32,000 nt of DNA, taken from NCBI GenBank assembly GCA_048013405.1, contig CP182108.1, forward strand, positions 2,638,987-2,670,986. The letters are read 5' to 3'. The notes under the pieces were generated by a model. The model did no database searches. It saw only the letters and a program-made list of their open reading frames with translations, and had not been told where the DNA came from. Below are positions 1 to 27,940 of the stretch, piece after piece. Source of the DNA: Halomonadaceae bacterium KBTZ08 (GTDB taxonomy: Bacteria; Pseudomonadota; Gammaproteobacteria; Pseudomonadales; Oleiphilaceae). Position 1 is the stretch's first letter. Every line of letters begins with the position of its first letter. The translations under genes were made by a program, and so were the position numbers.

Positions 1-1219
<1,219 letters not shown>

Positions 1220-1386
1220 GGTTGCTCCCGTTGAACGGCGCCGCGCCACGCAGCACCTTGCAGATGGGTTGTATTCTGCATTAACCCTCAGCCAACTGGC
1301 CAGAGAGCGTTAACATGCCGCAGTGGCCCATGTAGACTGTGTGGCTGTTTTCAGCCGCATGTTGGCGGACGCTCCGGAGAGGGTGA

Positions 1387-3786: not shown

Positions 3787-3808
3787 ACCCAATCACATTG
3801 AGGTAAGC

Positions 3809-8126: not shown

Positions 8127-8210
8127 AGCTGGCTGCTTTAAGCCTCAGTTTTATGGAAGGTGGTCTCCGGCTCCCTTCCTGCAGTTCTACTGGCGCACCG
8201 AGCGAACGAT

Positions 8211-8411
8211 ATGAAGATCGAACTGAACGGCGAAAACACTGAAGTCAGCGACGGCGCCAGCATCCAGGCACTGGTGGAGCAGCTGGAACTCACCGGGCGG
8301 CGCATTGCCGTGGAAGTGAACGAAGAGATTGTGCCCCGCAGCGAGTATGGCTCCCATCAACTGGCCCCTGGTGATCGCGTGGAGGTTGTGCATGCGATCG
8401 GCGGCGGCTGA
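8211..8411 (+). CDS. thiS: Thiamine biosynthesis sulfur-carrier protein ThiS
   Basis: ATG at 8211 gives a 66-aa protein, MKIELNGENTEV...VEVVHAIGGG, with the C-terminal GG of the ThiS/MoaD family. Directly upstream of thiG. Confidence 0.85.
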   Translation: MKIELNGENTEVSDGASIQALVEQLELTGRRIAVEVNEEIVPRSEYGSHQLAPGDRVEVVHAIGGG

Positions 8412-8444
8412 GCCGGCACCAATCAGGCCCCTGAAACGAGAGAG

Positions 8445-9248
8445 ATGATGACCAACGAGACCCCCCAGGACGCGCGCCTCACCATTGACGGCACCCCCTA
8501 CCAATCCCGCCTGCTGGTGGGAACGGGCAAATACGCCAGCTGGGAACAGGCCCGTGCGGCCATTGAGACCAGCGGGGCGGAGATGGTGACCATGGCGGTG
8601 CGGCGCACCAACCTGGGCCAGAACCCGGACGAACCCAGCCTTCTGGACATCGTCTCGCCGGAGCAGTACACGCTGCTGCCCAATACCGCCGGGTGCTACA
8701 ACGCCAGGGATGCCGTGCGCACCTGCAAGCTGGCGCGCGAGCTGCTGGACGGCCACAACCTGGTCAAGCTGGAGGTTCTGGGCGATGAGAAGACCCTTTA
8801 CCCGGACGTGACCGAGACCCTGAAGGCGGCGGAACAGCTGATCGACGACGGATTCCGGGTCATGGTCTACACCAATGACGACCCGCTGATCGCGCTCAGG
8901 CTGGAGCGCATGGGGTGTGTGGCGGTCATGCCGCTGGGCGCCCCCATTGGCTCCGGGCTGGGCATCCAGAACCGCTACAACATCCGCACCATTGTTGAGA
9001 ACGCCAGTGTTCCGGTGTTGGTGGATGCAGGCGTGGGCACGGCTTCGGACGCCAGCGTGGCCATGGAACTGGGCTGTGATGGCGTCCTGATGAACACCGC
9101 CATCGCCGAGGCCAGGGAGCCGGTCCGCATGGCCAGGGCCATGGGCAAGGCCATTGAAGCCGGTCGTGACGCCTACCTCGCCGGCCGTATGCCCAAAAAA
9201 GCCTACGCGAGCGCCTCATCGCCGTTTGACGGCACCTTCTTCCAGTGA
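8445..9248 (+). CDS. thiG: Thiazole synthase ThiG
   Basis: 267-aa ORF with ..[10 protein letters not shown].., ..LPNTAGC.., ..[13 protein letters not shown].., typical ThiG motifs. The start may be 8445 or 8448 (tandem ATG). Confidence 0.9.
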
Positions 9249-9442
9249 CCGCTGGGGCGTAAGAGCCCCAGCCCCGTGTGACAGGCCCCGACCGCGCTTT
9301 GGCCGACCCTGTGCCCAACCCGGCGATAGGGTCGATTTGTATAAATTGTGGGCGAAAGCCTGTGCCTCTGCTATACAAATAGAGGGGAGGCGCAGTCCAT
9401 AGAGCCTCCTACTCAGTCAAAGCCGTGATCGTGGAGGACCAC

Positions 9443-10528
9443 ATGAAAACAATGCTAAGCGGGCTTCTGTTCGGCGTCCTGCTCCTTTCGGGCGGGATGG
9501 CAACAGCGCAGACCGGCAAGACCCTCAACGTATTCACCTGGGAAGGCTATGTGCTGCCTGAGGAGGTTGAAGCCGTTAACAAGCTGCTTGAGCGCAAAGG
9601 GTATGACTACCGGGTGCAGGTTATTGAGCCGTGGGCGGAGGGCCCGTCCCAGATGTTCAACGTGATGCGCAGCGGCAACGTGGACATCAGCTTTCTCACC
9701 CTCAACTACATCAAGATGCAGGGGGGCAAGATCCAGTCGCTGTTGCAGCCCATCAACACGGATTCCCCACGACTTACCAATTACGACGCTCTGAACGACG
9801 ACCTGACCCAGATTTCAATGGGCATGGATAATGGTGAGCCCCTCTACATTCCCTGGGGCGGGGGCGCCTACGGCATCTGGGCCAACATGGACAAACTCTC
9901 CAAGGATGAGCTGCCCCAGTCGGTGAACGACCTCTGGAACGATCGCTGGGAGGGTAAACTCTCGCTCACTCAGGGCCAGATCCAGCCCAACATTGCCCTG
10001 GCGTTGATGGCCCAGGGGAAAGAGCCGTTCCACATCAACGAGCTGGCAGGGGACCGTGCCGGACTGGGTAAATACTCCAAGGCGGACACAGCCCTGCAGC
10101 GCAAGATGAACGCCCTGTACGACCAGGTTGGCAATTTCTGGTCCGATGGGCCGGTATTCAGCGACGACCTCCTCCTGGTTGCCTCCTACGGCCCCGGCGT
10201 ATCAGCCCACAATGCCGAAGGCGGTAACTGGGAGCTGGTCTCCTTTGAGGAAGGGAATACAGTTTGGCTGGACACGATCAACTTCAGTTCAGAGCTCTCC
10301 GGTCGGAAACTGGAAGCGGCGGAAATCTTTGCCAACTACTTCATTGGCAAGAAGGTCCAGGAGCGGGTGGTTGAAGGACTGGGTATGGTCGCCGCCTCCA
10401 GCAAGGTGGACTCCAACCCGCTGATCGAGGACAACCCGAACTTCTTTGACTCGGCCATGTTCTGGCCTCCCTATGACAGTAAGGCCAACAACGTGATGAA
10501 GATCATCTCGGATCGGGCGATGGAGTAA
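9443..10528 (+). CDS. Periplasmic solute-binding protein, PotD/PotF-like ABC substrate-binding family (orphan)
   Basis: ATG at 9443 after GGAGGA gives MKTMLSGLLFGVLLLSGGMATAQ (signal peptide). This is followed by ..LNVFTWEGY.., characteristic of polyamine-type SBPs. No permease or ATPase gene is adjacent. Confidence 0.7.
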   Translation: MKTMLSGLLFGVLLLSGGMATAQTGKTLNVFTWEGYVLPEEVEAVNKLLERKGYDYRVQVIEPWAEGPSQMFNVMRSGNVDISFLTLNYIKMQGGKIQSLLQPINTDSPRLTNYDALNDDLTQISMGMDNGEPLYIPWGGGAYGIWANMDKLSKDELPQSVNDLWNDRWEGKLSLTQGQIQPNIALALMAQGKEPFHINELAGDRAGLGKYSKADTALQRKMNALYDQVGNFWSDGPVFSDDLLLVASYGPGVSAHNAEGGNWELVSFEEGNTVWLDTINFSSELSGRKLEAAEIFANYFIGKKVQERVVEGLGMVAASSKVDSNPLIEDNPNFFDSAMFWPPYDSKANNVMKIISDRAME

Positions 10529-10557
10529 ACCATCCAAGTCGCCGCTAAGTGAACTCG

Positions 10558-10590
10558 CAGCGGCCATTGCCAAAGGGCAATTGGCCGCTG
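10558..10590 (+). terminator. Stem-loop downstream of the solute-binding protein gene (possible intrinsic terminator)
   Basis: CAGCGGCCATTGCC-AAA-GGGCAATTGGCCGCTG forms a stem of about 14 bp with one bulge, 30 nt after the stop codon. The trailing U-tract is weak (GTTTGC). Confidence 0.35.
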
Positions 10591-10654
10591 GTTTGCTGGA
10601 TATCCTCCTGAGCGACTCTTTGGGAGGTGGCGTTGCGTCAATTCCGACCAGGGC

Positions 10655-10816
10655 TCAGGTCTTGTCGTTGGTCTGACGACGCTTGGCCAGTTCCTTTTTC
10701 GCCCAATCGCCAGCGTGCCGCATCTCTTGCCGCAGTGATTCGATCTCGGATTGTGTCAACCGCCGGTGCTTTCCGGAGGTATCCTGTTTCGCCTTGTGTG
10801 AGTTGGTCGATGTCAT
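10655..10816 (-). CDS. Hypothetical small basic protein (53 aa)
   Basis: Not in the ORF track (too short). Minus-strand ATG at 10816 gives MTSTNSHKAKQDTSGKHRRLTQSEIESLRQEMRHAGDWAKKELAKRRQTNDKT, with TGA at 10655-10657. An AGAGG lies about 9 nt upstream. The charged helical-looking sequence is more protein-like than the overlapping 92-aa frame. Confidence 0.3.
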   Translation of the reverse strand: MTSTNSHKAKQDTSGKHRRLTQSEIESLRQEMRHAGDWAKKELAKRRQTNDKT

Positions 10817-10922
10817 AATGAAACGCCTCTTTCCGATCGTTGTTTATTGGCTGGCCATCTTTGTTCTCCGTGCCGGCCCGCATTGTGTCTTTGGCAACCA
10901 AACGTAATCTACCCATTTGGAT

Positions 10923-11064
10923 GTTAGCCGCGTGCCCGAGTGGCGCAATCTGGGGTCTGGAACTTGTCAGCCCAGGAGAACCGGTTTCTATCCACGCGCC
11001 CGCGTGGGGCGCGACTGGGCGGCTATAACCGCCGCTGCAAGGGAATCAAGGTTTCTATCCACGC
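10923..11064 (-). CRISPR. Remnant (trailer end) of a type I-C-like CRISPR array: degenerate terminal repeat, 33-nt spacer, intact 32-nt repeat, 35-nt spacer, then a repeat truncated after 14 nt by the IS
   Basis: The intact repeat at 10984-11015 reads GTCGCGCCCCACGCGGGCGCGTGGATAGAAAC on the minus strand, a near match to the classical I-C repeat GTCGCGCCCCGCACGGGCGCGTGGATTGAAAC. Positions 11051-11064 repeat the first 14 nt (plus-strand reading) exactly, then diverge into the IS end. Positions 10923-10950 (GTTAGCCGCGTGCCCGAGTGGCGCAATC) are a decayed copy. The 67-nt period (32+35) is typical of I-C. Confidence 0.8.
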
Positions 11065-11115
11065 TGTTAGTGGCCAATTAAAATGACCCACTACTGGCCA
11101 TTAATTTTGACCCAC
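11065..11115 (+). repeat. IS21 left terminal inverted repeat region with two transposase-binding-type subrepeats
   Basis: TGTTAG + TGGCCAATTAAAATGACCCAC (11071-11091) + TAC + TGGCCATTAATTTTGACCCAC (11095-11115). Confidence 0.7.
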
Positions 11116-11179
11116 CTCCGGGTGGCCGTCAGGCCACAGAACCAGCTACTGTCCTCCGCTTTTGTTAATGGCCGAGGGC

Positions 11180-12709
11180 ATGTCAGTGAAGGAGTGGGTT
11201 GTGATACACAAGATCAAGGCATTGCACGACAACGGCCAGGGCCTGTCGATCCGCGCCATCAGCCAGGAGCTGGGCGTATCCCGCAACACCGTGCGTAAGT
11301 ACCTGCGCATGGACGAGAGCGCGATCGGTCACCAACTGGACGATCCCGCCCGTACCAAGCGACTGGATGATTACCGGGATTATCTCGTTTATTTATTGGG
11401 CGAGTTTCCCAAGCTCAGTGCCGTCAAGATTGCCCGTAAGCTTCGGGCCAAGGTTGGGGAGCTGCCGGTATCGGATCGCTCCATACGCCGCTACGTGCAC
11501 ACACTCAAGGACGAAGTGGCTGTGGCCCAGCTGCGCTACTATGAGCCCATCGTGGACGATGTGGCGGGGGTTCAGTGCCAGGTGGATCCCGGTGAGTTGC
11601 GCGGGGTGTTGATCGGTGGTGAAGAACGCACACTGCACTTTGTGGTGTTCGTGCTGTCCTACTCGCGGTTGATGTACGTGGGCCTGGTCTTTCGCCCGCT
11701 GGATACGCAGACCTTTATCCAGCTCCACGATGAGGCCCTGCGTTACTTCGGTGGCCTGCCCGAGGAGTGCGTTTACGATCAGACCAAGCTGGTGGTGATC
11801 AACGAACAGTACCGCGAGCTCACCCTCAACCAGCGCTTCCACGAGTACGCCACTGCGGCCGGGTACCGGATCCATGCCTGTGAAGGCTATGACCCGGAGA
11901 GCAAGGGCAAGGTGGAGTCCGGCGTGAACTACGTCAAGCAGGATTGTCTCTACGGGGAAGTCTTCCGGGATCAGGCGCATGTGCGCGAGCACGTGCAGGA
12001 CTGGCTTGAGAGCGTGGCCAATGTGCGGATCCACGGCACCACCGGGGAGCCGCCCCGGGAGCGCTTTGAGCGCGACGAACGCCAGCACCTGAAGGCCTAT
12101 CTCGCACCGGCTTGCGTGCACTCAGTGGCCCGCCAGACCCGCCGCGCCGACAAGACGGGCCTGATCGCGTGGAAGGCCAATAAGTACTCGGTGCCCATGG
12201 CCTGGCAACAGGCGCGGGTGGGCGTTGTGGCCTCCGACGACGGCCAGCTCCACATCAGCGATCTGAATACGGGCGAGGTTATTGCCAGTCACACCCTGTC
12301 CGCCGACAAAGGTCGGATCATCAAGAACAACCACCACTACCGGGATCATGAGCAACGTCTGGATAAGCTGGAAGCCGACATTCGTGAACAGCTCGGCCAA
12401 GAGACAGGGCAGCGGTTGTGCCAGCAGCTCAAACGCTCTGGGCCCCGGATTTACAAGGATCAGCTGGTGGCGGCCAGGGAGCTGCTCAGCCACCACGCCC
12501 CCGTGGATCCCCAGTTGATCATGACGGTGGCCGATCGCCCCGGCATGACCGCCACGCGTTTGAGACGCTATCTGGAGGCGGCCGAGGCGGCCACCCAGCG
12601 CCAGCGAGAGCCGGAACCGGTTCCGGGGGCCGGTCAGGCACTGGATCTGAGCGCTTACCAGCAGCTTGGCCACTCCAGCGGCCAGGAGGTAACCCATGAG
12701 CCAGCTTGA
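11180..12709 (+). CDS. istA: IS21-family transposase IstA (HTH + DDE integrase core)
   Basis: ORF 11162..12709. N-terminal HTH ..GLSIRAISQELGVSRNTVRKYL.., a DDE-type core (..CQVDPGE.., ..VYDQTKLVV.., ..PESKGKVE..) and the IstA C-terminal region. The start is uncertain: ATG 11168, ATG 11180, or GTG 11201, which has an AAGGAG 6 nt upstream. Confidence 0.9.
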   Translation: MSVKEWVVIHKIKALHDNGQGLSIRAISQELGVSRNTVRKYLRMDESAIGHQLDDPARTKRLDDYRDYLVYLLGEFPKLSAVKIARKLRAKVGELPVSDRSIRRYVHTLKDEVAVAQLRYYEPIVDDVAGVQCQVDPGELRGVLIGGEERTLHFVVFVLSYSRLMYVGLVFRPLDTQTFIQLHDEALRYFGGLPEECVYDQTKLVVINEQYRELTLNQRFHEYATAAGYRIHACEGYDPESKGKVESGVNYVKQDCLYGEVFRDQAHVREHVQDWLESVANVRIHGTTGEPPRERFERDERQHLKAYLAPACVHSVARQTRRADKTGLIAWKANKYSVPMAWQQARVGVVASDDGQLHISDLNTGEVIASHTLSADKGRIIKNNHHYRDHEQRLDKLEADIREQLGQETGQRLCQQLKRSGPRIYKDQLVAARELLSHHAPVDPQLIMTVADRPGMTATRLRRYLEAAEAATQRQREPEPVPGAGQALDLSAYQQLGHSSGQEVTHEPA

Positions 12710-13436
12710 GCAGACCGTGGCCCGTTACCGCAGCCTGCGCCTGAGCGCGGCGGCGGACGAACTGACAAGCCTGTTGGCGCAAGCGGAAGCCAACGAGATG
12801 TCGTATCTGAGCTTCGCCGACCGGCTTGCCGAACACGAGCTGATCCAGCGACAGGACAAGCGGATCCGGCGCAATCGCAAAATGGCGGCCTTCCCCGCTG
12901 ACAAGCACCTGGAGGGGTTCGATTACCGCTACCAGACCACCATCACCAAGCGCCAGGTCAACGCCCTGCTGGACTTCCAGTTCATCGATGAGCGCAACAA
13001 CCTGGTGTTCATCGGCCCGCCCGGCGTGGGCAAGACCCACCTGGCCATCGGCATCGGCCACAAGGCCGTGGAGGCCGGCTACCGGGTCCTGTTCCGCAAC
13101 GCCCTGGATCTGGTCGAAGAGCTGGAGCTGGCCGAGATGAAGGGCGAGCTCAAAAAGCGGGTCAGCCAGCTGGCCAAGTACGACCTGTTGATCATCGATG
13201 AGCTGGGCTATCTGCCGATGACCCGCCAGGCAAGGTACAACCTGTTCCAGCTGATCAACAGCCTGTACGAGTACCGCTCGATCATCCTGACCACCAACAA
13301 GGACTTCACCAGCTGGGGCGAGTTCTTCCACGACGACAACGTGGCGGTACCGGTCATCGACCGGGTCATCCACCATTCACACATCTTTATGCTGGGAGGA
13401 GAAAGCTATCGGCTGAAGCAGAAAACCAAGACCTAG
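12696..13436 (+). CDS. istB: IS21-family transposition helper ATPase IstB
   Basis: 246-aa ORF overlapping the istA end. Walker A is GPPGVGKTHLA and Walker B is LLIIDELGY, within a typical IstB/DnaC-like AAA+ sequence. Confidence 0.92.
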   Translation: MSQLEQTVARYRSLRLSAAADELTSLLAQAEANEMSYLSFADRLAEHELIQRQDKRIRRNRKMAAFPADKHLEGFDYRYQTTITKRQVNALLDFQFIDERNNLVFIGPPGVGKTHLAIGIGHKAVEAGYRVLFRNALDLVEELELAEMKGELKKRVSQLAKYDLLIIDELGYLPMTRQARYNLFQLINSLYEYRSIILTTNKDFTSWGEFFHDDNVAVPVIDRVIHHSHIFMLGGESYRLKQKTKT

Positions 13437-13446
13437 ACTATGAAGG

Positions 13447-13500
13447 GTGGGGCAATTTTATTGGCCAAAGGTGGGTCAAAATAGATGGCCATTGACAGCA
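13447..13500 (-). repeat. IS21 right terminal inverted repeat region with two subrepeats
   Basis: The reverse complement reads TGCTGTCAA + TGGCCATCTATTTTGACCCAC (13491-13471) + CTT + TGGCCAATAAAATTGCCCCAC (13467-13447), matching the left-end motifs. Confidence 0.7.
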
Positions 13501-16500
13501 GCGAACGGGCATCCACGATATCTACGGCCTGCAGGAAATTTTCTGAGCTGCCTACGCGGCAGCGAACCCATCCGTGGCGGTCGTTACCCCTGCGGTAGTT
13601 TTCTGAGCTGCCTACGCGGCAGCGAACGGCTCGGAAGAAGTTGCGGGTGATGTGCTTGTTTTCTGAGCTGCCTACGCGGCAGCGAACGCGACAGCTTCCA
13701 GCCTGCGTACAGCGTGGATTTTCTGAGCTGCCTACGCGGCAGCGAACGGTCAGCTCCGCGATTTCCCGGCTGGACATTGTGTTTCTGAGCTGCCTACGCG
13801 GCAGCGAACGTCCAGGATGCCCGCAAGTATGCAGACCTGGATTTCTGAGCTGCCTACGCGGCAGCGAACGGCCAACCTTTGGGGCGAGGACAAGGTCTCT
13901 CTTTTCTGAGCTGCCTACGCGGCAGCGAACAACTTTACGACGCTTTTCGGGAAGGCTCGGAATTTTCTGAGCTGCCTACGCGGCAGCGAACGATATGACG
14001 ATTCAGGATGATGAATCAGTGATTTTCTGAGCTGCCTACGCGGCAGCGAACCGGCTTGTCAAGCTAAAGGCTGGCTACGCAAGTTTCTGAGCTGCCTACG
14101 CGGCAGCGAACTCGTCGTCATCCCAGTTTTTTGCCTGCTCTTTTTTCTGAGCTGCCTACGCGGCAGCGAACCTATGGGATTACGCTACCGCTGCTGTGCT
14201 ACATTTCTGAGCTGCCTACGCGGCAGCGAACTAAGAACTGCGAGGGGTCCGGCCATCTTCTCTGTTTCTGAGCTGCCTACGCGGCAGCGAACCTCGGTGA
14301 TCTTGATATAACGTACTCGGTCCATTTCTGAGCTGCCTACGCGGCAGCGAACGCCCGCCTGATGGGGTTCTATCAGGGTCTGAAGTTTCTGAGCTGCCTA
14401 CGCGGCAGCGAACAAATAATGGCGGACAGAATGATGGAAATGTTCTTTCTGAGCTGCCTACGCGGCAGCGAACCGAAGCATGAGTCAAAACGTATACACC
14501 ACAGTCTTTCTGAGCTGCCTACGCGGCAGCGAACTGCTGCCCATGTTGAGCCATCTGGGGATGATATTTCTGAGCTGCCTACGCGGCAGCGAACCTTAAC
14601 GTACGTTTCAACCGTCTGGTAGGTGTTTTCTGAGCTGCCTACGCGGCAGCGAACCACTCCTTCCGGTTAAGACAACCAGTCGTATATTTCTGAGCTGCCT
14701 ACGCGGCAGCGAACGACCGTCGCGCCCTGGTGCTCGTGTAGCGACTTTTCTGAGCTGCCTACGCGGCAGCGAACGGGCAAGCTCGGAAAGCGCTACTGGG
14801 ATGTATTTTCTGAGCTGCCTACGCGGCAGCGAACGTGGTAATGATCATATTTCATGAGGGGTTACCATTTCTGAGCTGCCTACGCGGCAGCGAACGTCTT
14901 ATGCGGAAAGGCAGCGCCAGAGCGGGGATTTCTGAGCTGCCTACGCGGCAGCGAACAATCACCAACGTCAATCCCGTCGCTGCCACTCTTTTCTGAGCTG
15001 CCTACGCGGCAGCGAACGGTCATCGACAATGAGCGCAGTAAGCCGCTTGATTTCTGAGCTGCCTACGCGGCAGCGAACAAGGAACGGTTTAATAGCGAGG
15101 CCGGCATGACTTTTCTGAGCTGCCTACGCGGCAGCGAACTCGCTTAGACAATGGTTTGTCGACTGCCTCCATTTCTGAGCTGCCTACGCGGCAGCGAACA
15201 TCGAAGACGGCATTATCCGGCGGCTCTCTCGCTTTCTGAGCTGCCTACGCGGCAGCGAACCCGACCTTGGGCGTAGCCTGACAGGGCGTTGTTTTCTGAG
15301 CTGCCTACGCGGCAGCGAACGAAAGAGGGGACGTAAAAACGGCAACCAATCATTTCTGAGCTGCCTACGCGGCAGCGAACAGGGAAACGTGGTCTTTTTT
15401 GAGGCCCGGTAGTTTCTGAGCTGCCTACGCGGCAGCGAACCGCTGATATTTGAAACTTTAGGCGAACTGTTCTTTCTGAGCTGCCTACGCGGCAGCGAAC
15501 AACTTCCTTTGTAATGCCGCCCGCGTTCCTGCTTTCTGAGCTGCCTACGCGGCAGCGAACTGAGCCAGACCCTGAACCTGTTCTTCCTGTTCTTTCTGAG
15601 CTGCCTACGCGGCAGCGAACTGGGACAGTATGACTGTTGCCGCCGCTCGCCATTTCTGAGCTGCCTACGCGGCAGCGAACGGCGAAAAGATGGCGTACAT
15701 GATTACGTACAGTTTCTGAGCTGCCTACGCGGCAGCGAACTTCCCCGACATGGCCACGTCGCCCGGCCAGTATTTCTGAGCTGCCTACGCGGCAGCGAAC
15801 ATCCTTCATAATCTCGTGGATGTCCCGACCTTTTTCTGAGCTGCCTACGCGGCAGCGAACCTGGCAGACGGTTGCAGCTTACGTAAGCTCTGGTTTCTGA
15901 GCTGCCTACGCGGCAGCGAACGAGGAGGCTGTGGCGTGGCGGGTAAGCCACCCGTTTTCTGAGCTGCCTACGCGGCAGCGAACGGATGATGAGGGCTTCA
16001 CGGAATTCGATGCCTTTTCTGAGCTGCCTACGCGGCAGCGAACATCGTCGGCGTCTTGTGCCCAGTCTCGGAGTTTTTCTGAGCTGCCTACGCGGCAGCG
16101 AACGCTGGCTCATTGAGTTTTTAAGCTGGCTGCATTTTCTGAGCTGCCTACGCGGCAGCGAACTTCGGCGAAGTTGCAGCTGCTGATCTATTTTCTTTCT
16201 GAGCTGCCTACGCGGCAGCGAACGATTTGACGGACCTTGGCTGCGTGCTTGCGGATTTTCTGAGCTGCCTACGCGGCAGCGAACAAACCGGCCTGCACGT
16301 CCACCCGGAATACGACTTTTCTGAGCTGCCTACGCGGCAGCGAACGCGGTTTGTAGGCTTAAACTCCCGCGCAGCCGTTTCTGAGCTGCCTACGCGGCAG
16401 CGAACGCGGCGAAAACCTAGTGTTTGGTACCGCGGCATTTCTGAGCTGCCTACGCGGCAGCGAACGCTAACGGCGGCTACCTGTCTGGCAGGTCAGCTTT

Positions 16501-17370
16501 CTGAGCTGCCTACGCGGCAGCGAACCTCAGTTTCCGGGAATCAACTACTGGGCACGATTTCTGAGCTGCCTACGCGGCAGCGAACCCGGGGAAAAGGCGG
16601 AAGCCTCCCCGGAGCGGTTTCTGAGCTGCCTACGCGGCAGCGAACGCAATGGGTACACGCTCGCATGGCGGGCGAATTTTTCTGAGCTGCCTACGCGGCA
16701 GCGAACGCCCGTTCTGTTTTATCAAGGGCATGACCAGCTTTCTGAGCTGCCTACGCGGCAGCGAACACGATCCGACAAACGCCAGCCACCGGGGGGCATT
16801 TCTGAGCTGCCTACGCGGCAGCGAACTTGCGGTACCGGACAAGCTCGCGGGGCGTTATTTTCTGAGCTGCCTACGCGGCAGCGAACACATAGGACCATGG
16901 CCGGAAAAGACGCCTATGCTTTCTGAGCTGCCTACGCGGCAGCGAACGTGGACGCCGACTGGATGCTCGGTCGCCTTAATTTCTGAGCTGCCTACGCGGC
17001 AGCGAACCATAGTCATCCGTGATCTTGCCAAAACTAATATTTCTGAGCTGCCTACGCGGCAGCGAACACTCAGGTTGTAGTTGTTTATGACACATCAGGA
17101 TTTCTGAGCTGCCTACGCGGCAGCGAACAATATGTTTCGCGCCAGCGCGGGCAATATCACTTTTCTGAGCTGCCTACGCGGCAGCGAACATCAACAGCAT
17201 CAACGGGGCGGCGATACAGCTTTTCTGAGCTGCCTACGCGGCAGCGAACATTCACTCGCGTCAGTTCTGCGTATATAGAAACTTTCTGAGCTGCCTACGC
17301 GGCAGCGAACCTGGACGACCAAATCGAAGAGTGGGATCGCCATTTCTGAGCTGCCTACGCGGCAGCGAAC
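13501..17370 (-). CRISPR. Type I-F CRISPR array: 64 identical 28-nt repeats plus a 6-9 nt repeat stump at the IS junction; 64 spacers
   Basis: The plus-strand repeat is TTTCTGAGCTGCCTACGCGGCAGCGAAC. The minus-strand sense is GTTCGCTGCCGCGTAGGCAGCTCAGAAA (compare canonical I-F GTTCACTGCCGTATAGGCAGCTAAGAAA). I located 64 repeat starts by hand, from 13540 to 17343. Periods are 60, 61 or 62 nt (spacers 32-34 nt). The leader-proximal repeat is 17343-17370, next to cas6f. The distal end is cut at 13501-13506 (GCGAAC) by the IS. Confidence 0.97.
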
Positions 17371-17500
17371 TAGAACCGAAAAAGCATAAGTCTCTGATTG
17401 TTAAAGAGCAAGAGCCCAAAAGGCCTCCAAAACCCTTTTTGGAGGCCTTTGTGTAGGTGGTTGATTTTAAAGTTTGTTTTTGAAGCTTCTCAAAAAGGGT
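17371..17500 (-). promoter_or_regulatory. AT-rich CRISPR leader between cas6f and the first repeat, with a candidate sigma70 promoter
   Basis: 130-nt AT-rich spacer. On the minus strand, TTGCTC (17411-17406), 17 nt, then TATGCT (17388-17383) lies 12 nt upstream of the first repeat, downstream of the cas6f terminator hairpin. Confidence 0.5.
17418..17450 (-). terminator. Intrinsic terminator-like hairpin after cas6f
   Basis: A perfect 11-bp stem GGCCTCCAAAA / TTTTGGAGGCC (17422-17432 / 17437-17447) with a 4-nt loop, extended by A:T pairs. On the minus strand it is followed by TTTTGGG. It lies about 50 nt downstream of the cas6f stop. Confidence 0.6.
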
Positions 17501-18064
17501 TCAAAAACAGGGTACCGTTGCATGGTCACTCAGGCCATAAGCGTTAAAGGTGCCAGGCACCGGCTCGTTTTTGGGAGCACTCTGCTCGATAAAACAATGG
17601 AAACGCTGGCGGGTGCTCTGGCTTCGCAGTACAAGAAATGGCAATGACGGGGTTTGTTCCACCTTTGCAGGTATTGCATCAGCCGCCTGTTCATAGGTTT
17701 CATCGTGGCGTTTCATACGCCGTCGCCGCAGTCGTTCCACGTTGGTCTTGAACTGGCGGCGCTTGAAAATACGGTGCTCGGCGTCAGCCGGAACGGGATT
17801 AATACCACTGCTTGCCGTCTGTTCGGAGAGGCCCCGGAGCCAGTCAGTGGCCATCAGGCTCTCCAGTCGCTGTGGCGTTGAGTGCACCCTGAGCACGCTC
17901 CCCAGCGAACGGGGAGCTGTGGAATAGCCAGGGAAGCTGACACCCACGTCGGTCCACTGCTCATTGGCCAGTTGCCGGTGCAGTTTGCTGAAAAGCGCAC
18001 TCATCAGAACCGGCGGCGTGAACTCCGGATCGGGAAGCACCTCAAGCTCAATGTAGTGCGACAT
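17501..18064 (-). CDS. cas6f: Type I-F CRISPR endoribonuclease Cas6f (Csy4)
   Basis: 187 aa. MSHYIELEVLPDPEFTPPVLMSALFSKLHRQL...VGVSFPGY closely parallels the Csy4 N-terminus (MDHYLDIRLRPDPEF..LMS.LF.KLH). It is the last gene before the array. Confidence 0.93.
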   Translation of the reverse strand: MSHYIELEVLPDPEFTPPVLMSALFSKLHRQLANEQWTDVGVSFPGYSTAPRSLGSVLRVHSTPQRLESLMATDWLRGLSEQTASSGINPVPADAEHRIFKRRQFKTNVERLRRRRMKRHDETYEQAADAIPAKVEQTPSLPFLVLRSQSTRQRFHCFIEQSAPKNEPVPGTFNAYGLSDHATVPCF

Positions 18065-19107
18065 TACTCGCCTCCTTCGCCGAATACCCCACCCCGGATC
18101 AGCGTTGCCATCACGAAGTGCTGGTTGCCCGCGTCAGCCGGTTTCTTGTCCTTGAGGATCCAGTTGTCCAGCAGTGAGTAGAAGTCTGCTTTCTGTTTTG
18201 GCTGGCGGTAGGCGGCTCCCTTGGTGGTTACGGAGCCGTAGGGCTCAACAGCGATAGGGCCGACGTCGTCGCCGTTGTCCGTGGGGTACCAGGTGTCGAT
18301 GGTCCTGATGGCGTTGCCAAGTTTCTGGGAGTGGATGCCGGCAATGCCATCAACGCTGTATAGGGTTTTGCTTTTGGTGCGGTTGCCCTGGTTCAGGATG
18401 AGTTCCTGGGAGGGGAAAACTTCCTGGCCATCCCCAATGCGGACGGCTGCACTGATTTCCAGAAGCAAGTGCTCCCGATCTTCCAGGGCCGCCTGGATGT
18501 GCGAGGCCAGTTCGGCAACCTGCTGTTTTTCCGTGTCTTCAACGTTAAAGTTCCGCATGGGGACATTGAAGGCATCAAAGCGCCATTGCTGGCTTCGCTC
18601 TCCTTTCTGGAGCCGACTGACGTCAACCTGGACCTCTTCCGCACCCATGCGATTGCGCCACAGAAAGCGGCCATTGGCCAGGTTGGTCGCATAACGGAAG
18701 GCGAGTGCCTCAAAACCATGCTTATCGCGGTATTCGTTCACAACCTCGCGGAGGCGGTCTTCATAAGGGGCGTTGTTGCAAGCGGAGGGAGTGCCCGTGC
18801 CGCCGAGCACCCTCAGTGTAAAACGCACCACCAGCGTATCGTCTGTGTTGGGAAGGGCGGCTACATCCACGGTTTGCAGGTTGGGGTTCTCGATGTCGGC
18901 ATCGATCTTGGCGGCATCCTGTTGCTTGGCTTTAAGCCGATTGGAAATGGTGCCGCGGACGGATTTCTCCCGGATTGACACGGGTTTCCAGTGCTCTGAA
19001 TGGGCCCGGTCGTCCCAGGTGGTGCTGAACATGAGGCCATCGGAGGGGTCCAGCTTGCGTTCAAACGCGAGGACGGAAGCGGTTTTGAGTGCGTCGTTTT
19101 TAGCCAT
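18064..19107 (-). CDS. csy3: Type I-F Cascade backbone subunit Csy3 (Cas7f)
   Basis: ATG at 19107 (AGGAG 8 nt upstream) gives a 347-aa protein, MAKNDALKTASVLAFERKLDPSDGLMFS.... Position and size fit Csy3. The TAATG overlap with cas6f supports the call. The longer 19251 start would overlap csy2 and is rejected. Confidence 0.9.
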   Translation of the reverse strand: MAKNDALKTASVLAFERKLDPSDGLMFSTTWDDRAHSEHWKPVSIREKSVRGTISNRLKAKQQDAAKIDADIENPNLQTVDVAALPNTDDTLVVRFTLRVLGGTGTPSACNNAPYEDRLREVVNEYRDKHGFEALAFRYATNLANGRFLWRNRMGAEEVQVDVSRLQKGERSQQWRFDAFNVPMRNFNVEDTEKQQVAELASHIQAALEDREHLLLEISAAVRIGDGQEVFPSQELILNQGNRTKSKTLYSVDGIAGIHSQKLGNAIRTIDTWYPTDNGDDVGPIAVEPYGSVTTKGAAYRQPKQKADFYSLLDNWILKDKKPADAGNQHFVMATLIRGGVFGEGGE

Positions 19108-19109
19108 TA

Positions 19110-20132
19110 TTAAAGCTCCTGTGATGGGGTTGAGCTGGTGTTTTGGGTTTCTGCAAAGTCGTTCTGAAGTTGGTAAAGACCTGTTTCGGGGTCTGTCTCG
19201 GGATACCAGAGCATGTCCGCTGGCGTTCTCAATCGATGGGGACTCACCCATTGCCCGATTGAGAACAGGCTTTCAACAAACCGGAATGGGACGGAGGCGT
19301 CCCGGCAGTTGTTGACCTGTCCCTCTCCAAGAGTTTCCGTCAGTGCCCCGAATCCGACCGGTATGGGAACAAACCAGCCAGGGCGGGACGGGCGCCGTAC
19401 CTGCCATTCGGTGTCGTTCTGGGTTTCCTCGCCTGCGCCAGCACTATCGGAGTTCGTGGCCTGGATGTTCAGCCGGGAGAGGTCCAGCCAGGCATCCAGA
19501 AGCGAGGTTTCCGGATCATGCTGGCGGCGTTCGTGCCAGTGCTCGTGCAGAAGATCGTTGCGCAGCACGAGGGAGAACCCTGGCAGCAGCTTGTAGGTCA
19601 GTTGGCGGAATTGGCTCTGCGCCTCGTTTGTATCGTCGCTCAGCGCCACTAGAGAGGAGTGGGTGCGTCGGCCGGGCGCGTTGGTTGTGGGGGCATCGGG
19701 TAGCACGGTTCCGCCGGCTACCCGCATATCGCCGAGCATCTCACGAACGGCCTGGGCCGTTGAGTCCTTCTCCGCATCGGGGGCGTCACAAAGCGCCCCG
19801 AAAACCGAAAACACAAGACTGATGTCCAGGTGGATGCGGCCTTCTTCAACAATAGCGGCTGTCTCACCCTTATGGTTGACCGGGTTGCGGGTCAGGTGAA
19901 GGGCATTGACGTAACCGGACTGCGAGGCCTGGGCCTCATGGCGGTGGCAGACCACGCCCACACCATTAAAGTAGAGGTCCATGCCGGCGGCCTGGATCTG
20001 TCTTTCCAGGGCATGCATGAGGCCCACGAATGCCGTCATGGCAGGGAAGCCCCAGGTCATGGGCCCGGAAATGGCATTGGCGTTCTGCACCCTGATGCGG
20101 GGCAGCACCAGTAGGGCTTGCGCGTCAGACAT
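19110..20132 (-). CDS. csy2: Type I-F Cascade subunit Csy2 (Cas5f)
   Basis: 340 aa. MSDAQALLVLPRIRVQNANAISGPMTWGFPAMTAFVGLMHALERQ is a typical Csy2 N-terminus. It overlaps the csy1 end by 8 nt. Confidence 0.9.
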   Translation of the reverse strand: MSDAQALLVLPRIRVQNANAISGPMTWGFPAMTAFVGLMHALERQIQAAGMDLYFNGVGVVCHRHEAQASQSGYVNALHLTRNPVNHKGETAAIVEEGRIHLDISLVFSVFGALCDAPDAEKDSTAQAVREMLGDMRVAGGTVLPDAPTTNAPGRRTHSSLVALSDDTNEAQSQFRQLTYKLLPGFSLVLRNDLLHEHWHERRQHDPETSLLDAWLDLSRLNIQATNSDSAGAGEETQNDTEWQVRRPSRPGWFVPIPVGFGALTETLGEGQVNNCRDASVPFRFVESLFSIGQWVSPHRLRTPADMLWYPETDPETGLYQLQNDFAETQNTSSTPSQEL

Positions 20133-21423
20133 GGGGAAGCACCTCCTGCAGTTCGTCCAGTCTTTCCTTCAGTTGCTTGGACCAGTGGTCGTACTCGGTA
20201 TCCGAAACGGGAAGGGCGGCTTCAAGGCTGCCGTTGAGCCAGGCGGCGAATGTCTGGCGAATGTGGAGTGGCCAGTCGATGGTCGCGTGGTTGTCGGCAA
20301 ATGCCTCGTCGACCCGTGTGCGGTCCGGATCGAGCCAGTGGGCTTCCGCCTCAGGGAGGTCGCACTCCTCATGGCGGCTCCAGCCAGGCTCCGCCGAGTG
20401 GAGTTCGCTGGTGAAGAGGATCAGCTCATCGATCAATGCATGGATGAATTCGTCCCGGTGTTCCCGGGTAGCGGCGGTGGGTTTAGGGTCCGACTTGAGA
20501 AACGCCCTGAGGTCCCTCACAAGCTCTCGGGTCGTGGTTCGTTTCCCGAAAATCTTGAATGCGGAGGCGACCCGCAGGGGGAGGCGAGCATCCGGGGAAT
20601 GCCATGTTGGCGGAAGCGATCTCAGCAGGTAGTTGACGCCTCCACGTTCGCTGTTGAGCTGGGAGATATTCTGCGGTTTGGAACCGCCGAATTTCTGGAT
20701 GGCGAGATCGGGGTAAAAGCGGACCTCGGTATCGGAATACGCTCCGTTCCGGCGGGCTTGGCGAGCTGCTTTGGCGCTTTCCCCGAAACGGTCCTCGTTG
20801 ATGGTCCGGTACACATCATGGGCCAAGGAGGTGGCGTAAAGCGGGGCCAGCAAATGGAACTGGGAGTCGTCGCTCGGGTCATCTCCCGTCAGCCAGTAGA
20901 ACTGTTTGGCTCTGGTGTGGGAAGCGTAGGTGCCTGCGGGCTCCGTGATGCCGGCAAAGGCACTGACCCATTCCAGGGCTAGCTCCCGATCCTCACTCAG
21001 CGCGGCGATCAGTTCCGGGTCTTGGCGCAGGGCGCGTTCAAGCAATGACTCACCATTGAGCTCAATACGGAGAAACTTATAAACGTCCAATTGGGCGGCG
21101 TTGCCCACCACATCAGGGCTGAAGTTCGTTTTCAGGAGGTGGCTTCCCACAAAGGGATGATCTGGAAGCTGCTCTGGGGGGGCGTACAGATTGGTCCCTT
21201 TGGCGTCGGGGTGGATGGGCTTGAGGGAATGGGTGACGACCTGGAGCTGATTGACGCGTTTTGCCGCCTGTTCGAGCCAGGTGCTGAATTGGTGTTGCTG
21301 CGCCAGGGCGTTCCGTTTGTCGGGGTCGCTCTGGGTTTTGAGTTTGGTTTCCAGGCGCGCGTTGATGAAAGAGTTTATGAGCTCCCTCAGTTGAGACGCC
21401 TCTTCCGATACAGTGTTTTCCAT
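20125..21423 (-). CDS. csy1: Type I-F Cascade large subunit Csy1 (Cas8f)
   Basis: 432 aa, located between cas2-3 and csy2. The Csy1-like N-terminal region reads ..FINARLETKLK...QLQVVTHSLKPIHPDAKGTNLY... Confidence 0.88.
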   Translation of the reverse strand: MENTVSEEASQLRELINSFINARLETKLKTQSDPDKRNALAQQHQFSTWLEQAAKRVNQLQVVTHSLKPIHPDAKGTNLYAPPEQLPDHPFVGSHLLKTNFSPDVVGNAAQLDVYKFLRIELNGESLLERALRQDPELIAALSEDRELALEWVSAFAGITEPAGTYASHTRAKQFYWLTGDDPSDDSQFHLLAPLYATSLAHDVYRTINEDRFGESAKAARQARRNGAYSDTEVRFYPDLAIQKFGGSKPQNISQLNSERGGVNYLLRSLPPTWHSPDARLPLRVASAFKIFGKRTTTRELVRDLRAFLKSDPKPTAATREHRDEFIHALIDELILFTSELHSAEPGWSRHEECDLPEAEAHWLDPDRTRVDEAFADNHATIDWPLHIRQTFAAWLNGSLEAALPVSDTEYDHWSKQLKERLDELQEVLPHV

Positions 21424-21444
21424 AATCGCCTCGTAGTGTCCGGC

Positions 21445-24400: not shown

Positions 24401-24813
24401 CCTCGGAGCCGGTTCTGGAAGGCGGCACAGACTTTACCGAGGTCATGCATGAGCGCGGCCATGGCAGCCAGCAGTTTGATGTCCTCGCCGGTATGCCAGT
24501 CGTTCTCATCCATGGAACGACGAATGTCGTGGGTGGTGGTATTGGTGGGCACAGTACCTGTCGCGCTGAATTGGCGGGCATTGCCCACAATCCATAGGAG
24601 CTCACTGTGGTCTTTGCCTCGGATCCAGTGGCAGGCCACGGCTGTGTTCTTTCGGGCTTTTTGTCTGAGCAGTTTGCGCAGGGTGTTCAGGCCTTCCTGG
24701 GTGATCGGTGTCTGCCAGGTGCGTTCACCCTTGCGCTCAGCGAACTGATCGAGGATCCGGCGGGTTTCGGTGAGCGCACGGCCGCTGCACTGGGATACCA
24801 GCAGTATGTTCAT
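21445..24813 (-). CDS. cas3: Type I-F Cas2-Cas3 fusion protein (Cas2/3: Cas2 domain + HD nuclease + SF2 helicase)
   Basis: 1122 aa. N-terminal Cas2-like region MNILLVSQCSGRALTETRRILDQFAERKG.... HD region ..LMHDLGK... Helicase Walker A ..ASTGCGKT.. and DExD-like ..LVLDEIDD... Size and position between cas1 and csy1 are diagnostic for I-F. Confidence 0.93.
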   Translation of the reverse strand: MNILLVSQCSGRALTETRRILDQFAERKGERTWQTPITQEGLNTLRKLLRQKARKNTAVACHWIRGKDHSELLWIVGNARQFSATGTVPTNTTTHDIRRSMDENDWHTGEDIKLLAAMAALMHDLGKVCAAFQNRLRGGADAQQKNLIRHEWISLRLFQAFVGSDDDAAWLERLASTNSVSDKAFMDSLQQDGLTEQTDYPLANLPPLAAAIGWLILSHHRLPAMPTDKSRWGAKPDSLRAGQLRNIPGIIDAEWNERTQSTSPSDLKPYWAFEHPTPVTTEKWQNQAAKVARRLQARRHPSGGYLDNAYLMHLTRLSLMLADHHYSSLTEKQYRYEGEPDYPVFANTDRKTGAFNQPLDEHILGVMKTSMEIAHNLPGVERYLPRLGRHKGFRKRSSNSRFRWQDHAFDLAESLRQKSQDQGFFGINMASTGCGKTLANGRILYALADPNRGARFSIALGLRTLTLQTGQAYRQRLGLGEDELAIRVGGAANRVLHDYYEEQAEKAGSASSQGLMSEDSHVYFEGNIDDHPLLNRVADDPHTRSLLSAPILSCTVDHLMPATESLKSGHQIAPMLRLLSSDLVLDEIDDFALNDLHALTRLTFWAGLLGTRLILSSATITPDLAMGLFDAYRAGRAEYQKNRGESSRPANVCCAWFDEHQRTHHNCDSKQAFGEAHAEFAHQRTRKLSQHAVRRRGALINNLPEGVHKTEIPSSLAKQFLEHSQTLHGRHHTEDPKTGKRVSFGLIRMANIDPLIQVAEAMYALEGVTGTRIHLCVYHSQFPLLVRSAIEHHLDRALSRSDEKAVFELPEIRGQLDSHPEPDQLFIVLGSPVTEVGRDHDYDWAIVEPSSMRSIIQLAGRVVRHRTITPEQPNVFLLDKNLAALKRPAEPAFMRPGFEGYGQWQLRSHSLSDVLTPDEYEVIDSRPRLLRRPKLDPQGNLCDLEHARLEELLVAPEMPDGQSSQDTDSGQALSPRQKAKRRSEPVLGAYSFHYLPYAHLTGVLQQWKPFRERTAQESELVLLPDETEEDFVLHEIANGEKRGETIYRQVEKSKLHRITLNSPQETAIGPWVETDYMTLLNQLADNMEMDLMECAAKFGKLSLRNNDQGWRFNPLIGFSNQD

Positions 24814-25790: not shown

Positions 25791-25878
25791 GGTGTCTGCC
25801 CGTGTTTCCTGATGATTTGAGTATTGTAGTAGGTAGGCTAACAGCGGGCCTGCCCCACATAACGCATCACTGGTGGAA

Positions 25879-27936: not shown

Positions 27937-27940
27937 AGGT

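What the first reader, a model, noticed from the sequence alone, without database searches (positions are those of the whole stretch)
10923..13567. IS21 element sits at the junction between two different CRISPR repeat families, with no target-site duplication
Left flank: immediately left of the IS the sequence is GTTTCTATCCACGC. This is the first 14 nt (plus-strand reading) of the 32-nt I-C-like repeat seen intact 67 nt earlier. Right flank: immediately right of the IS the sequence begins (GCA)GCGAAC, the last 6-9 nt of the 28-nt I-F repeat. A 33-nt spacer and 64 intact I-F repeats follow. Orientation: both arrays have their crRNA sense on the minus strand. The IS therefore replaces the trailer side of the I-F array and the leader side of the I-C-like array. 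Target duplication: the flanking octamers (ATCCACGC versus GCGAACGG) are unrelated, so the 4-8 bp duplication expected of a simple IS21 insertion is absent. Interpretation: this fits an IS-mediated adjacent deletion, or recombination between two IS copies. Either would have removed the DNA between the arrays, possibly older I-F spacers, the I-C leader and an entire I-C cas operon. It would be a caught-in-the-act example of an IS erasing one CRISPR-Cas system while leaving its neighbour intact.
Basis: partly seen in the sequence, partly recalled or inferred. Interest (0 to 1): 0.75.

Follow-up and report, generated by a model that had tools for sequence, protein, structure and literature searches.

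The report
IS21 joint fusing two CRISPR arrays
A 2.4-kb IS21-family mobile element, lacking the short duplication a normal insertion leaves, joins the last stub of a type I-C CRISPR array to an intact type I-F CRISPR-Cas system; relatives show that a full I-C system once sat here, which makes this a clear but not unprecedented case of a mobile element removing or swapping out an immune system.

Summary
An IS21-family element (window 11065-13497, 2433 bp, istA+istB) has on its left a 14-nt piece of a 32-nt type I-C repeat. On its right is a 9-nt piece of a 28-nt type I-F repeat, then a 33-nt spacer and 64 perfect I-F repeats. More than 40 other copies fix the IS ends, and three relatives carry 5-bp target duplications. 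Here the flanking 5-mers are CACGC and GCAGC, so there is no duplication.

The source is Halomonadaceae bacterium KBTZ08, a Salicola relative. In Salicola sp. Rm-C-2C1-2 the same site holds a 58-repeat I-C array and cas3-5-8c-7-4-1-2. The flank there is 95-99% identical to the window, against 72-84% for the backbone. No KBTZ08 protein falls in the 90% clusters of those I-C Cas proteins. KBTZ08 has at least four more IS copies.

One correction: relatives carry either I-C or I-F in a single slot between a WYL regulator and thiG, with an identical cassette boundary. The IS joint may therefore record a cassette exchange rather than a deletion between tandem neighbours.

IS21-family insertion into I-C arrays and IS inactivation of CRISPR-Cas are both published. 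This is a new member of a known kind, of moderate interest.

The parts
8500..11064 (.). Tract nearly identical to Salicola sp. Rm-C-2C1-2. It covers thiG (8445-9248, +), the PotD/PotF-type solute-binding protein (9425-10528, +), orf53 (10655-10816, -) and the I-C trailer region. The IS cuts it off on the right.
   Evidence: Sliding identity to L003 is 72-84% up to about 8500, then 91-99% (mostly 94-99%) as far as the array stub. Protein accessions XOZ32979 and XOZ32980.
10919..10983 (-). Decayed extra I-C repeat (about 10919-10950) followed by a conserved pseudo-spacer (10951-10983)
   Evidence: Aligns with the Rm-C-2C1-2 trailer. The pseudo-spacer matches L003 at 27 of 29 positions.
10984..11015 (-). 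Intact 32-nt type I-C repeat, the trailer-terminal repeat of the former array
   Evidence: Only full copy in the window. It has the GCGTG loop variant of the relative's terminal repeat, not the array consensus GCACG. Weak Rfam CRISPR-DR9 match on the minus strand, E=0.35.
11016..11050 (-). The single remaining I-C spacer (35 nt)
   Evidence: It is not shared with the relative's array and has no exact match in JGI metagenomes.
11051..11064 (-). Truncated I-C repeat: 14 nt, the 3' part in crRNA sense
   Evidence: Identical to the first 14 nt (plus strand) of the intact repeat and cut exactly at the IS left end.
11065..13497 (+). IS21-family insertion sequence, 2433 bp. The left inverted repeat carries the L1 and L2 repeats (11071-11091, 11095-11115). 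istA is 11201-12709 and istB is 12696-13436. The right inverted repeat carries the R2 and R1 repeats (13447-13467, 13471-13491). There is no target-site duplication.
   Evidence: Protein accessions XOZ32981 and XOZ32982.
13498..13506 (-). Truncated I-F repeat: 9 nt, the 5' part in crRNA sense (GTTCGCTGC)
   Evidence: (family D7).
13507..13539 (-). I-F spacer next to the junction (33 nt). It lacks the downstream repeat hairpin, so it probably cannot be matured by Cas6f; this is an inference.
   Evidence: No exact match in JGI metagenomes.
13540..17370 (-). Type I-F CRISPR array: 64 identical 28-nt repeats and 63 spacers, with no degenerate terminal repeat
   Evidence: The relative L044 has the same repeat, and its last two copies are degenerate.
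17371..17500 (-). I-F leader
   Evidence: Lies between cas6f and the first repeat. L044 has a 130-nt leader in the same position.
17501..25790 (-). Complete type I-F cas operon: cas1 (24810-25790), cas2/3 (21445-24813), csy1 (20125-21423), csy2 (19110-20132), csy3 (18064-19107) and cas6f (17501-18064)
   Evidence: Pfam matches. Identity to metagenome contig L044 is 93-98% over most of the operon (96-98% from csy3 to cas2/3), falling to about 90% at the far end of cas1. Protein accessions XOZ32983-32988.
25791..25878 (-). Boundary between WYL and the cas cassette. The window switches from Rm-C-2C1-2-like to L044-like sequence about 33 nt after the WYL stop codon (about 25846).
   Evidence: Three-way alignment A3. 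BLAST end points agree.
25879..26844 (-). HTH-WYL-WCX regulator, lying upstream of the cas operon on the same strand
   Evidence: Pfam WYL, WCX and HTH_11. PADLOC CRISPR-associated WYL, E=1.8e-38. 90.7% identical to the WYL gene that precedes I-C cas3 in Rm-C-2C1-2.

Best explanation
The IS is a rearrangement joint, not a simple insertion. Its left end keeps the target of an insertion into the second-oldest repeat of a type I-C array; the expected duplication there was CACGC. Its right end keeps the target of an insertion into a type I-F repeat; the expected duplication there was GCAGC.

The most likely route is homologous recombination between two same-orientation copies of this multi-copy IS, one in each array. 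That leaves one hybrid copy and drops everything between the copies. The crossover could have been within one chromosome that carried both systems. It could equally have been between a resident cassette and incoming DNA from another Salicola lineage, with the IS serving as one homology arm.

The outcome is that the I-C leader, roughly 56 or more repeats and the whole I-C cas operon are absent from this genome. What remains of I-C is a dead stub of 1.4 repeats with no leader and no cas genes. The I-F system (cas1 to cas6f, leader and 64 repeats) stays intact behind the WYL regulator and is presumably the working system. Only its spacer next to the junction has probably become unusable.

Shown: the anatomy, the missing duplication, the intact I-C system at the same site in a relative, the absence of those I-C Cas proteins from KBTZ08, and the additional IS copies. 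Inferred: the order of events and which recombination route was taken.
For: The IS ends are fixed to the base by more than 40 copies, and 5-bp duplications are seen in three relatives. The flanks CACGC and GCAGC are unrelated, and each continues into a different repeat family.

At the same site in Rm-C-2C1-2 there is a 58-repeat I-C array, a leader and cas2-1-4-7-8c-5-3. The adjoining flank is 95-99% identical to the window. The window's intact repeat matches that array's degenerate terminal repeat.

None of the six I-C Cas 90% clusters contains a KBTZ08 protein, whereas all 13 KBTZ08 proteins queried with a matching gene start were in the collection. KBTZ08 encodes at least 4 further IstA copies: XOZ32168, 32859, 33643 and 34206. 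Another Salicola-like strain, L045, has a copy of the same IS about 4 kb from the same SBP gene and in the same orientation.

The window's IstA differs from the other copies at 10 of 502 residues, which argues against an assembler collapsing or mis-joining identical repeats.
Against: The IS shows no clear chimeric step against its nearest relatives. No relative with I-C and I-F in tandem was found, and none with an IS in either array. The resulting structure is identical to what a single IS would produce through an adjacent deletion. The 90% cluster test would miss a divergent I-C system elsewhere in the genome.
Confidence: 0.55

Rival explanations
1. A single IS caused an adjacent deletion. 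One copy inserted into one array of an ancestor that carried I-F and I-C side by side. An intramolecular transposition of one IS end into a repeat of the other array then deleted the DNA in between, leaving the same IS without a duplication.
For: It gives exactly the observed structure. It needs only one resident copy at the locus. IS21-family transposases act on single and tandem elements and can fuse replicons (PMC10122671).
Against: It requires a tandem I-F/I-C ancestor. Four related loci each hold a single system in this slot. Adjacent deletion specifically by IS21-family elements was not documented in the papers read here.
Confidence: 0.3
2. Assembly artefact. The assembler joined the left flank of one IS copy to the right flank of another, so the I-C and I-F arrays are not truly adjacent.
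For: The IS is multi-copy in this genome. Metagenome contigs with the 95.7% identical IS often show mismatched flanks (L047, L049, L052), and L047 shares its left flank with L048 but has a different right flank.
Against: The record is a single 3.42-Mb contig. This copy's IstA is unique in the genome, differing at 10 of 502 residues from the other copies. A mis-join would leave the rest of the I-C array and its cas operon elsewhere in the assembly, yet no KBTZ08 protein clusters with the I-C Cas proteins.
Confidence: 0.06
3. Ordinary insertion. The IS inserted once into a pre-existing hybrid I-C/I-F repeat, and the duplication has since decayed or was only 2 bp (GC).
For: Both flanks touch the IS with GC, and both repeats contain ACGCG.
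Against: Three relatives of this IS make clean 5-bp duplications. The 5-mers CACGC and GCAGC agree at 1 of 5 positions. The adjoining repeats are perfect, so local decay is unlikely.
Confidence: 0.03

Closest known systems
IS21 family insertion sequences (IS21, IS5376, ISCfr8, ISRso19)
   Same: Two genes, istA (HTH plus DDE/rve transposase) and istB (AAA+ helper). Ends are TG...CA. Each terminal inverted repeat holds two repeats (L1/L2, R1/R2), as described for the family (PMC10122671). Length is 2.4 kb, and relatives make 5-bp duplications.
   Different: The closest annotated element is only 75% identical (ISCfr8) and the closest unnamed copies in Marinobacter and Acinetobacter are 83-85%. 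By the usual naming thresholds this is probably an unnamed element; that judgement is from my own knowledge. This particular copy lacks a duplication.
IS21-family (ISRso19-like) insertion in the type I-C CRISPR array of Xanthomonas citri pv. citri (PMC6889575)
   Same: An IS21-family element sits inside a repeat of a type I-C array.
   Different: That case is described as an insertion that leaves the array on both sides. Here the two sides belong to different CRISPR types, and the I-C cas operon is missing.
IS transposition into cas genes that inactivates CRISPR-Cas (PMC10359306)
   Same: A mobile element abolishes a CRISPR-Cas system.
   Different: Those are simple insertions into cas genes with target duplications. 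Here a whole cas operon and array are absent, the joint has no duplication, and a second CRISPR-Cas type remains intact.
WYL-domain regulators next to diverse defence systems (BrxR family, PMC9122601)
   Same: An HTH-WYL-WCX regulator lies immediately upstream of the defence operon, and different systems follow it in different strains.
   Different: Here the alternative cargo consists of two CRISPR-Cas subtypes exchanged at an identical boundary within one genus. Regulation by this protein has not been tested.

Membership tests
IS21 family insertion sequence | istA encodes an HTH plus DDE (rve) transposase | tested here: met
   NCBIfam transpos_IS21 equivalog, 256 bits against a cutoff of 160. 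Pfam rve, rve_3, HTH and Mu-transpos_C_2.
IS21 family insertion sequence | istB encodes an AAA+ helper ATPase immediately downstream, overlapping istA | tested here: met
   Pfam IstB_IS21, E=2.4e-78. It overlaps istA by 14 nt.
IS21 family insertion sequence | Terminal inverted repeats ending 5'-TG...CA-3', with multiple internal repeats | tested here: met
   54-nt inverted repeats, 74% complementary. Two 21-nt repeats at each end. The ends are conserved in more than 40 copies.
IS21 family insertion sequence | Short (4-8 bp) target-site duplication at a simple insertion | tested here: not met
   This is a feature of an insertion event, not of the element itself. Relatives have 5-bp duplications. 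This copy has CACGC against GCAGC. That marks this copy as rearranged and does not count against family membership.
Type I-F CRISPR-Cas | cas1, fused cas2-cas3, csy1 (cas8f), csy2 (cas5f), csy3 (cas7f) and cas6f, with 28-nt repeats | tested here: met
   All six Pfam families match with E values of 1e-15 or lower. 64 Rfam CRISPR-DR4 repeats.
Type I-F CRISPR-Cas | Interference and adaptation activity | not testable with these tools
   All ORFs are intact and all 64 repeats are identical, which is consistent with activity but does not prove it.
Type I-C CRISPR array (remnant) | 32-nt repeat of the I-C type, associated with cas3-cas5c-cas8c-cas7-cas4-cas1-cas2 | tested here: met
   The association is shown only in the relative. 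Rm-C-2C1-2 has 58 repeats differing from the window's repeat at 2 positions, next to a full I-C operon at the same site. The window itself holds no I-C cas gene.
Type I-C CRISPR array (remnant) | At least two repeats separated by a spacer | tested here: inconclusive
   One full repeat, a 14-nt piece of a second and one decayed copy. Taken alone this would not qualify as an array. Homology to the relative's trailer end makes the assignment secure.

The most novel reading that the evidence does not exclude
The slot between the WYL regulator and thiG in Salicola is a site where whole CRISPR-Cas subtypes (I-C or I-F) are exchanged as cassettes behind a retained regulator. KBTZ08 would then have captured an exchange in which a multi-copy IS21 element, present in both arrays, served as the portable homology arm. 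On this reading the I-C stub is the scar of a subtype swap, or even imported passenger DNA, rather than of a deletion between neighbouring systems.
Probability: 0.35. Interest if true: 0.55.

Novelty: new member of a known kind. Interest (0 to 1): 0.35.

Why it matters
This is a clean, base-resolved natural example of how a bacterium loses or swaps one adaptive immune system while keeping another. An ordinary insertion sequence serves as the joint. The comparison with relatives also points to a conserved chromosomal slot, behind a WYL regulator, that holds different CRISPR-Cas types in closely related halophiles. That is useful for studying how CRISPR-Cas types turn over in natural populations. 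It does not reveal a new mechanism.

Tried and rejected
Searches that found nothing or could not reach the data:
- Exact-protein look-ups of IstB, Cas6f and the heme ABC ATPase in the gene-position index returned nothing. The KBTZ08 chromosome is not indexed, so the rest of the genome could not be read.
- The genome-contig scan with the IS left end found 40 loci, mostly Marinobacter and none from Salicola or KBTZ08. It fixed the IS ends but gave no other copy from the source genome.
- JGI metagenome scans for the I-C stub spacer and for the I-F spacer next to the junction returned 0 hits each. No ancestral uninterrupted array was found.

Tests that gave no signal:
- Self-targeting as a driver of the loss. 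All 64 I-F spacers and the I-C spacer were compared with the relatives' I-C module, the IS and the window. Only chance matches of 12-17 nt (up to 20 nt with mismatches) appeared.
- A chimeric IS as a trace of crossover. Mismatches against the 94-96% identical copies are spread out with no step. The 10 IstA differences from the other KBTZ08 copies lie at residues 87-398 and are uninformative.
- Shared spacers between the window's I-F array and L044, or between the I-C stub and Rm-C-2C1-2: none.

Ideas considered and rejected:
- A 2-bp GC duplication, or a pre-existing hybrid repeat, was rejected against the 5-bp duplications in relatives.
- The TGTTAGCC motif at 10923 and at the I-F cassette boundary resembles the IS end (TGTTAG), but it is only an 8-mer, which is within chance for 64 kb of two-strand sequence.
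- The 325-aa protein of L045 and the window's 327-aa ORF are unrelated.

Full report
**What is in the sequence**

Window 11065-13497 is a 2433-bp IS21-family element.
- It has imperfect 54-nt terminal inverted repeats. Each contains two copies of a 21-nt repeat. This is the L1/L2-R1/R2 layout described for the family (PMC10122671).
- istA is 11201-12709: NCBIfam IS21 transposase, 256 bits against a cutoff of 160, plus Pfam rve and HTH domains.
- istB is 12696-13436: Pfam IstB_IS21, E=2.4e-78.

To the left lies GTTTCTATCCACGC (11051-11064). It is identical to the first 14 nt of an intact 32-nt repeat at 10984-11015, and a 35-nt spacer separates the two.

To the right lies GCAGCGAAC (13498-13506), the last 9 nt of a 28-nt repeat. 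A 33-nt spacer follows, then 64 perfect copies of that repeat at 13540-17370. Rfam calls all 64 as CRISPR-DR4 on the minus strand.

A complete type I-F operon follows on the minus strand, in the order cas6f, csy3, csy2, csy1, cas2/3, cas1. Beyond it is an HTH-WYL-WCX regulator. Only the IS coordinates needed tightening.

**IS ends and target duplication**

The ends were fixed from other copies.
- An 84.7% identical copy on an Acinetobacter johnsonii plasmid aligns over 1-2433 and diverges from the window exactly at both ends.
- A scan of species-representative genomes with the left end gave 40 loci, mostly Marinobacter. Their 35 different left flanks all break at TGTTAG, and several contigs are the collapsed IS itself at 2423-2431 bp.
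- Metagenome copies at 95.7% identity are again exactly 2433 bp.

Three independent relatives carry 5-bp target duplications: AAGCC (L001), GCGTT (L019) and CCGAG (L048). In the window the flanking 5-mers are CACGC and GCAGC. The duplication is genuinely absent, and each flank continues into a different CRISPR repeat family.

**Source genome**

Exact protein matches identify 'Halomonadaceae bacterium KBTZ08', a single 3,423,457-bp contig. The consecutive accessions are:
- XOZ32979: SBP
- XOZ32980: orf53
- XOZ32981 and XOZ32982: IstA and IstB
- XOZ32983-32988: Cas6f to Cas1f
- XOZ32989: WYL regulator
- XOZ32992: heme ABC ATPase

This order reproduces the window's gene order. The same genome encodes at least four further IstA proteins (XOZ32168, 32859, 33643, 34206). 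They are identical to each other and 98% identical (492 of 502 residues) to the window's copy. No paper mentions the strain.

**The ancestral I-C locus**

The solute-binding protein left of the stub is 98% identical to that of Salicola sp. Rm-C-2C1-2. In that genome the same gene is followed by orf53 and a type I-C array of 58 repeats. The array consensus is GTTTCTATCCACGCGCCCGCACGGGGCGCGAC, and the degenerate terminal repeat has a GCGTG loop. A leader and cas2-cas1-cas4-cas7-cas8c-cas5-cas3 follow, all on the minus strand.

The window's intact repeat carries the GCGTG variant, so it is the trailer-terminal repeat. The decayed repeat and pseudo-spacer to its left are also conserved. The IS therefore cuts the second-oldest repeat. 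About 56 repeats, the leader and seven cas genes are missing.

None of the 90% clusters of Cas1c, Cas2, Cas4, Cas5c, Cas7 and Cas8c contains a KBTZ08 protein. In contrast, every KBTZ08 protein that I queried with a matching gene start was present in the collection. This argues for loss rather than relocation. It also argues against a mis-assembly, which would have left the operon elsewhere in the chromosome.

**One slot, alternative cassettes**

Other relatives change the picture.
- Metagenome contig L044 has thiS-thiG, an old-yellow-enzyme gene, and then an I-F array with the same repeat (31 copies, the last two degenerate, no shared spacers). The same I-F operon, a WYL regulator and an ankyrin gene follow.
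- In Rm-C-2C1-2 a WYL regulator sits directly upstream of I-C cas3 and is followed by ankyrin genes.
- A third I-F contig, L054, again has WYL followed by cas1.

Homology between the I-C and I-F versions stops at the same point in all of them, 33 nt after the WYL stop codon. The stretch between WYL and thiG is therefore a single slot that holds either I-C or I-F in the genomes found. No tandem arrangement was seen.

**The window is a mosaic**

| Window segment | Nearest relative | Identity |
|---|---|---|
| Backbone 1-8500 | L045 | 87-92% |
| Backbone 1-8500 | Rm-C-2C1-2 and L044 | 72-86% |
| 8500-11064 (thiG to I-C stub) | Rm-C-2C1-2 | 95-99% |
| I-F operon | L044 | 96-98% |
| WYL gene | Rm-C-2C1-2 | 90.7% |
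| WYL gene | L044 | 76-83% |

The window switches from Rm-C-like to L044-like sequence exactly at the cassette boundary. All homology to relatives ends at 26843, the WYL start codon. Put simply, KBTZ08 has I-C-allele flanks on both sides, with an I-F cassette plus the IS in place of the I-C operon and array.

A further relative, L045, has SBP, then a 325-aa protein and a TonB-dependent receptor. A 94% identical copy of the same IS follows in the same orientation, and the contig ends inside it. The IS is therefore active around this hot spot in the population.

**Mechanism**

The two flanks imply two separate target joints. One is in an I-C repeat, with an expected duplication of CACGC. The other is in an I-F repeat, with an expected duplication of GCAGC. 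Three routes give the observed structure:
- (a) Recombination between two direct IS copies in a chromosome carrying both systems.
- (b) Recombination between an IS in a resident array and an IS on incoming DNA from another lineage, with the second crossover in thiG or WYL.
- (c) Insertion of a single IS followed by intramolecular transposition, giving an adjacent deletion.

I favour two-copy recombination, routes (a) and (b) together, at about 0.55. The reasons are that the genome holds at least five copies, a copy sits at the same hot spot in L045, and the locus is visibly recombinogenic. Route (c) gets about 0.3.

The sharp identity step at about 8500, and the different identities of the two Rm-C-like flanks (95-99% against 90.7%), fit route (b) somewhat better than a single in-situ deletion. 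They do not prove it.

Assembly artefact gets about 0.06. The contig is closed, this IS copy is unique in sequence, and no I-C cas genes turn up elsewhere. However, metagenome contigs of this IS do show chimeric flanks, so confirmation with reads is still desirable.

**Consequences (inferred)**

The I-C stub has no leader and no cas genes, so it is inert. The I-F system has intact ORFs, a leader and 64 identical repeats, so it is probably active. The spacer at 13507-13539 is followed by only 9 nt of repeat, which cannot form the hairpin that Cas6f binds. It should therefore not give a mature crRNA; this rests on established knowledge of I-F crRNA processing.

Whether older I-F spacers were lost cannot be decided. 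The lack of a degenerate terminal repeat, which L044 has, hints at truncation.

**Comparison with what is known**

- An IS21-family element inside a repeat of a type I-C array has been reported in Xanthomonas citri (PMC6889575).
- IS insertion into cas genes that inactivates CRISPR-Cas has been surveyed (PMC10359306).
- WYL regulators next to varied defence systems are known (PMC9122601).

What is specific here is a joint without a duplication between arrays of two CRISPR types. There is also comparative evidence for a whole operon lost or replaced, and for subtype exchange at a fixed boundary behind a retained regulator. I class it as a new member of a known kind, with interest of about 0.35. 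The cassette-swap reading has a probability of about 0.35 and would deserve interest of about 0.55.

**Checks that gave nothing**

- No I-F spacer targets the I-C module, the IS or the window.
- No exact match was found in JGI metagenomes to the I-C stub spacer or to the I-F spacer next to the junction.
- The IS shows no chimeric step.
- The rest of the KBTZ08 chromosome could not be read.

Noticed in passing
window 8500-10900 compared with 1-8500: Identity to Salicola sp. Rm-C-2C1-2 jumps from 72-84% to 95-99% inside thiG and stays high as far as the I-C stub. This looks like a recent recombination tract that the IS cuts off on the right.
   Followed up: partly
window 17500-25800; L044 2275-10564: The I-F cas operon is 96-98% identical to a metagenome contig whose backbone is only 74-86% identical. 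The I-F cassette therefore moves between lineages.
   Followed up: partly
window 25791-26844; L053 6702-7700; L044 1220-2218; L054 1-787: An HTH-WYL-WCX regulator precedes either I-C cas3 or I-F cas1 in different Salicola lineages. Homology ends 33 nt after its stop codon in all of them. The window's WYL is 90.7% identical to the copy linked to I-C, although here it is followed by I-F.
   Followed up: partly
window 26844-28414: All homology to relatives stops at the WYL start codon. The next two ORFs (327 and 164 aa) have no Pfam, NCBIfam or PADLOC match, and the sequences as I called them are not in the protein collection. A heme ABC transporter (hmuV/U/T-like, 28371-31136) follows, which Rm-C-2C1-2 lacks.
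   Followed up: partly
L045 11088-15827: The closest backbone relative has no CRISPR after SBP. It carries a 325-aa membrane protein and a TonB-dependent receptor, followed by a 94% identical copy of the same IS in the same orientation. An inverted fragment resembling an IS end (GTTGCCACTAACA, 14871-14884) lies 34 bp to the left of that copy.
   Followed up: no
L003/L053 I-C cas genes (protein clusters): Cas2, Cas4 and Cas5c of the Salicola I-C system fall in 90% identity clusters with proteins from other halophile genera. Cas2 clusters with Spiribacter salinus, S. pallidus and Vreelandella (Halomonas) utahensis, and Cas4 with V. utahensis; Cas5c clusters only with unnamed metagenome (ENA and Logan) sequences. 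This points to transfer of this system between families of halophiles.
   Followed up: no
window 11016-11050 compared with L003 11639-11673: The oldest I-C spacer differs completely between the window and Rm-C-2C1-2, although the trailer and terminal repeat on one side are about 93-100% identical. This is unexplained. Spacer loss in one lineage or recombination within the array are possible causes.
   Followed up: no
window 13540-17370: All 64 I-F repeats are identical and there is no degenerate trailer repeat. Several long spurious ORFs are called across the array, for example 13433-13777, 15213-15809 and 16227-17080.
   Followed up: no
L047, L049, L052: Metagenome contigs carrying the 95.7% identical IS have mismatched flanks. 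L047 shares its left flank with L048 but has a different right flank. These are probably chimeric assemblies across a multi-copy IS, which is a caution for any argument based on a missing duplication in short-read assemblies.
   Followed up: partly
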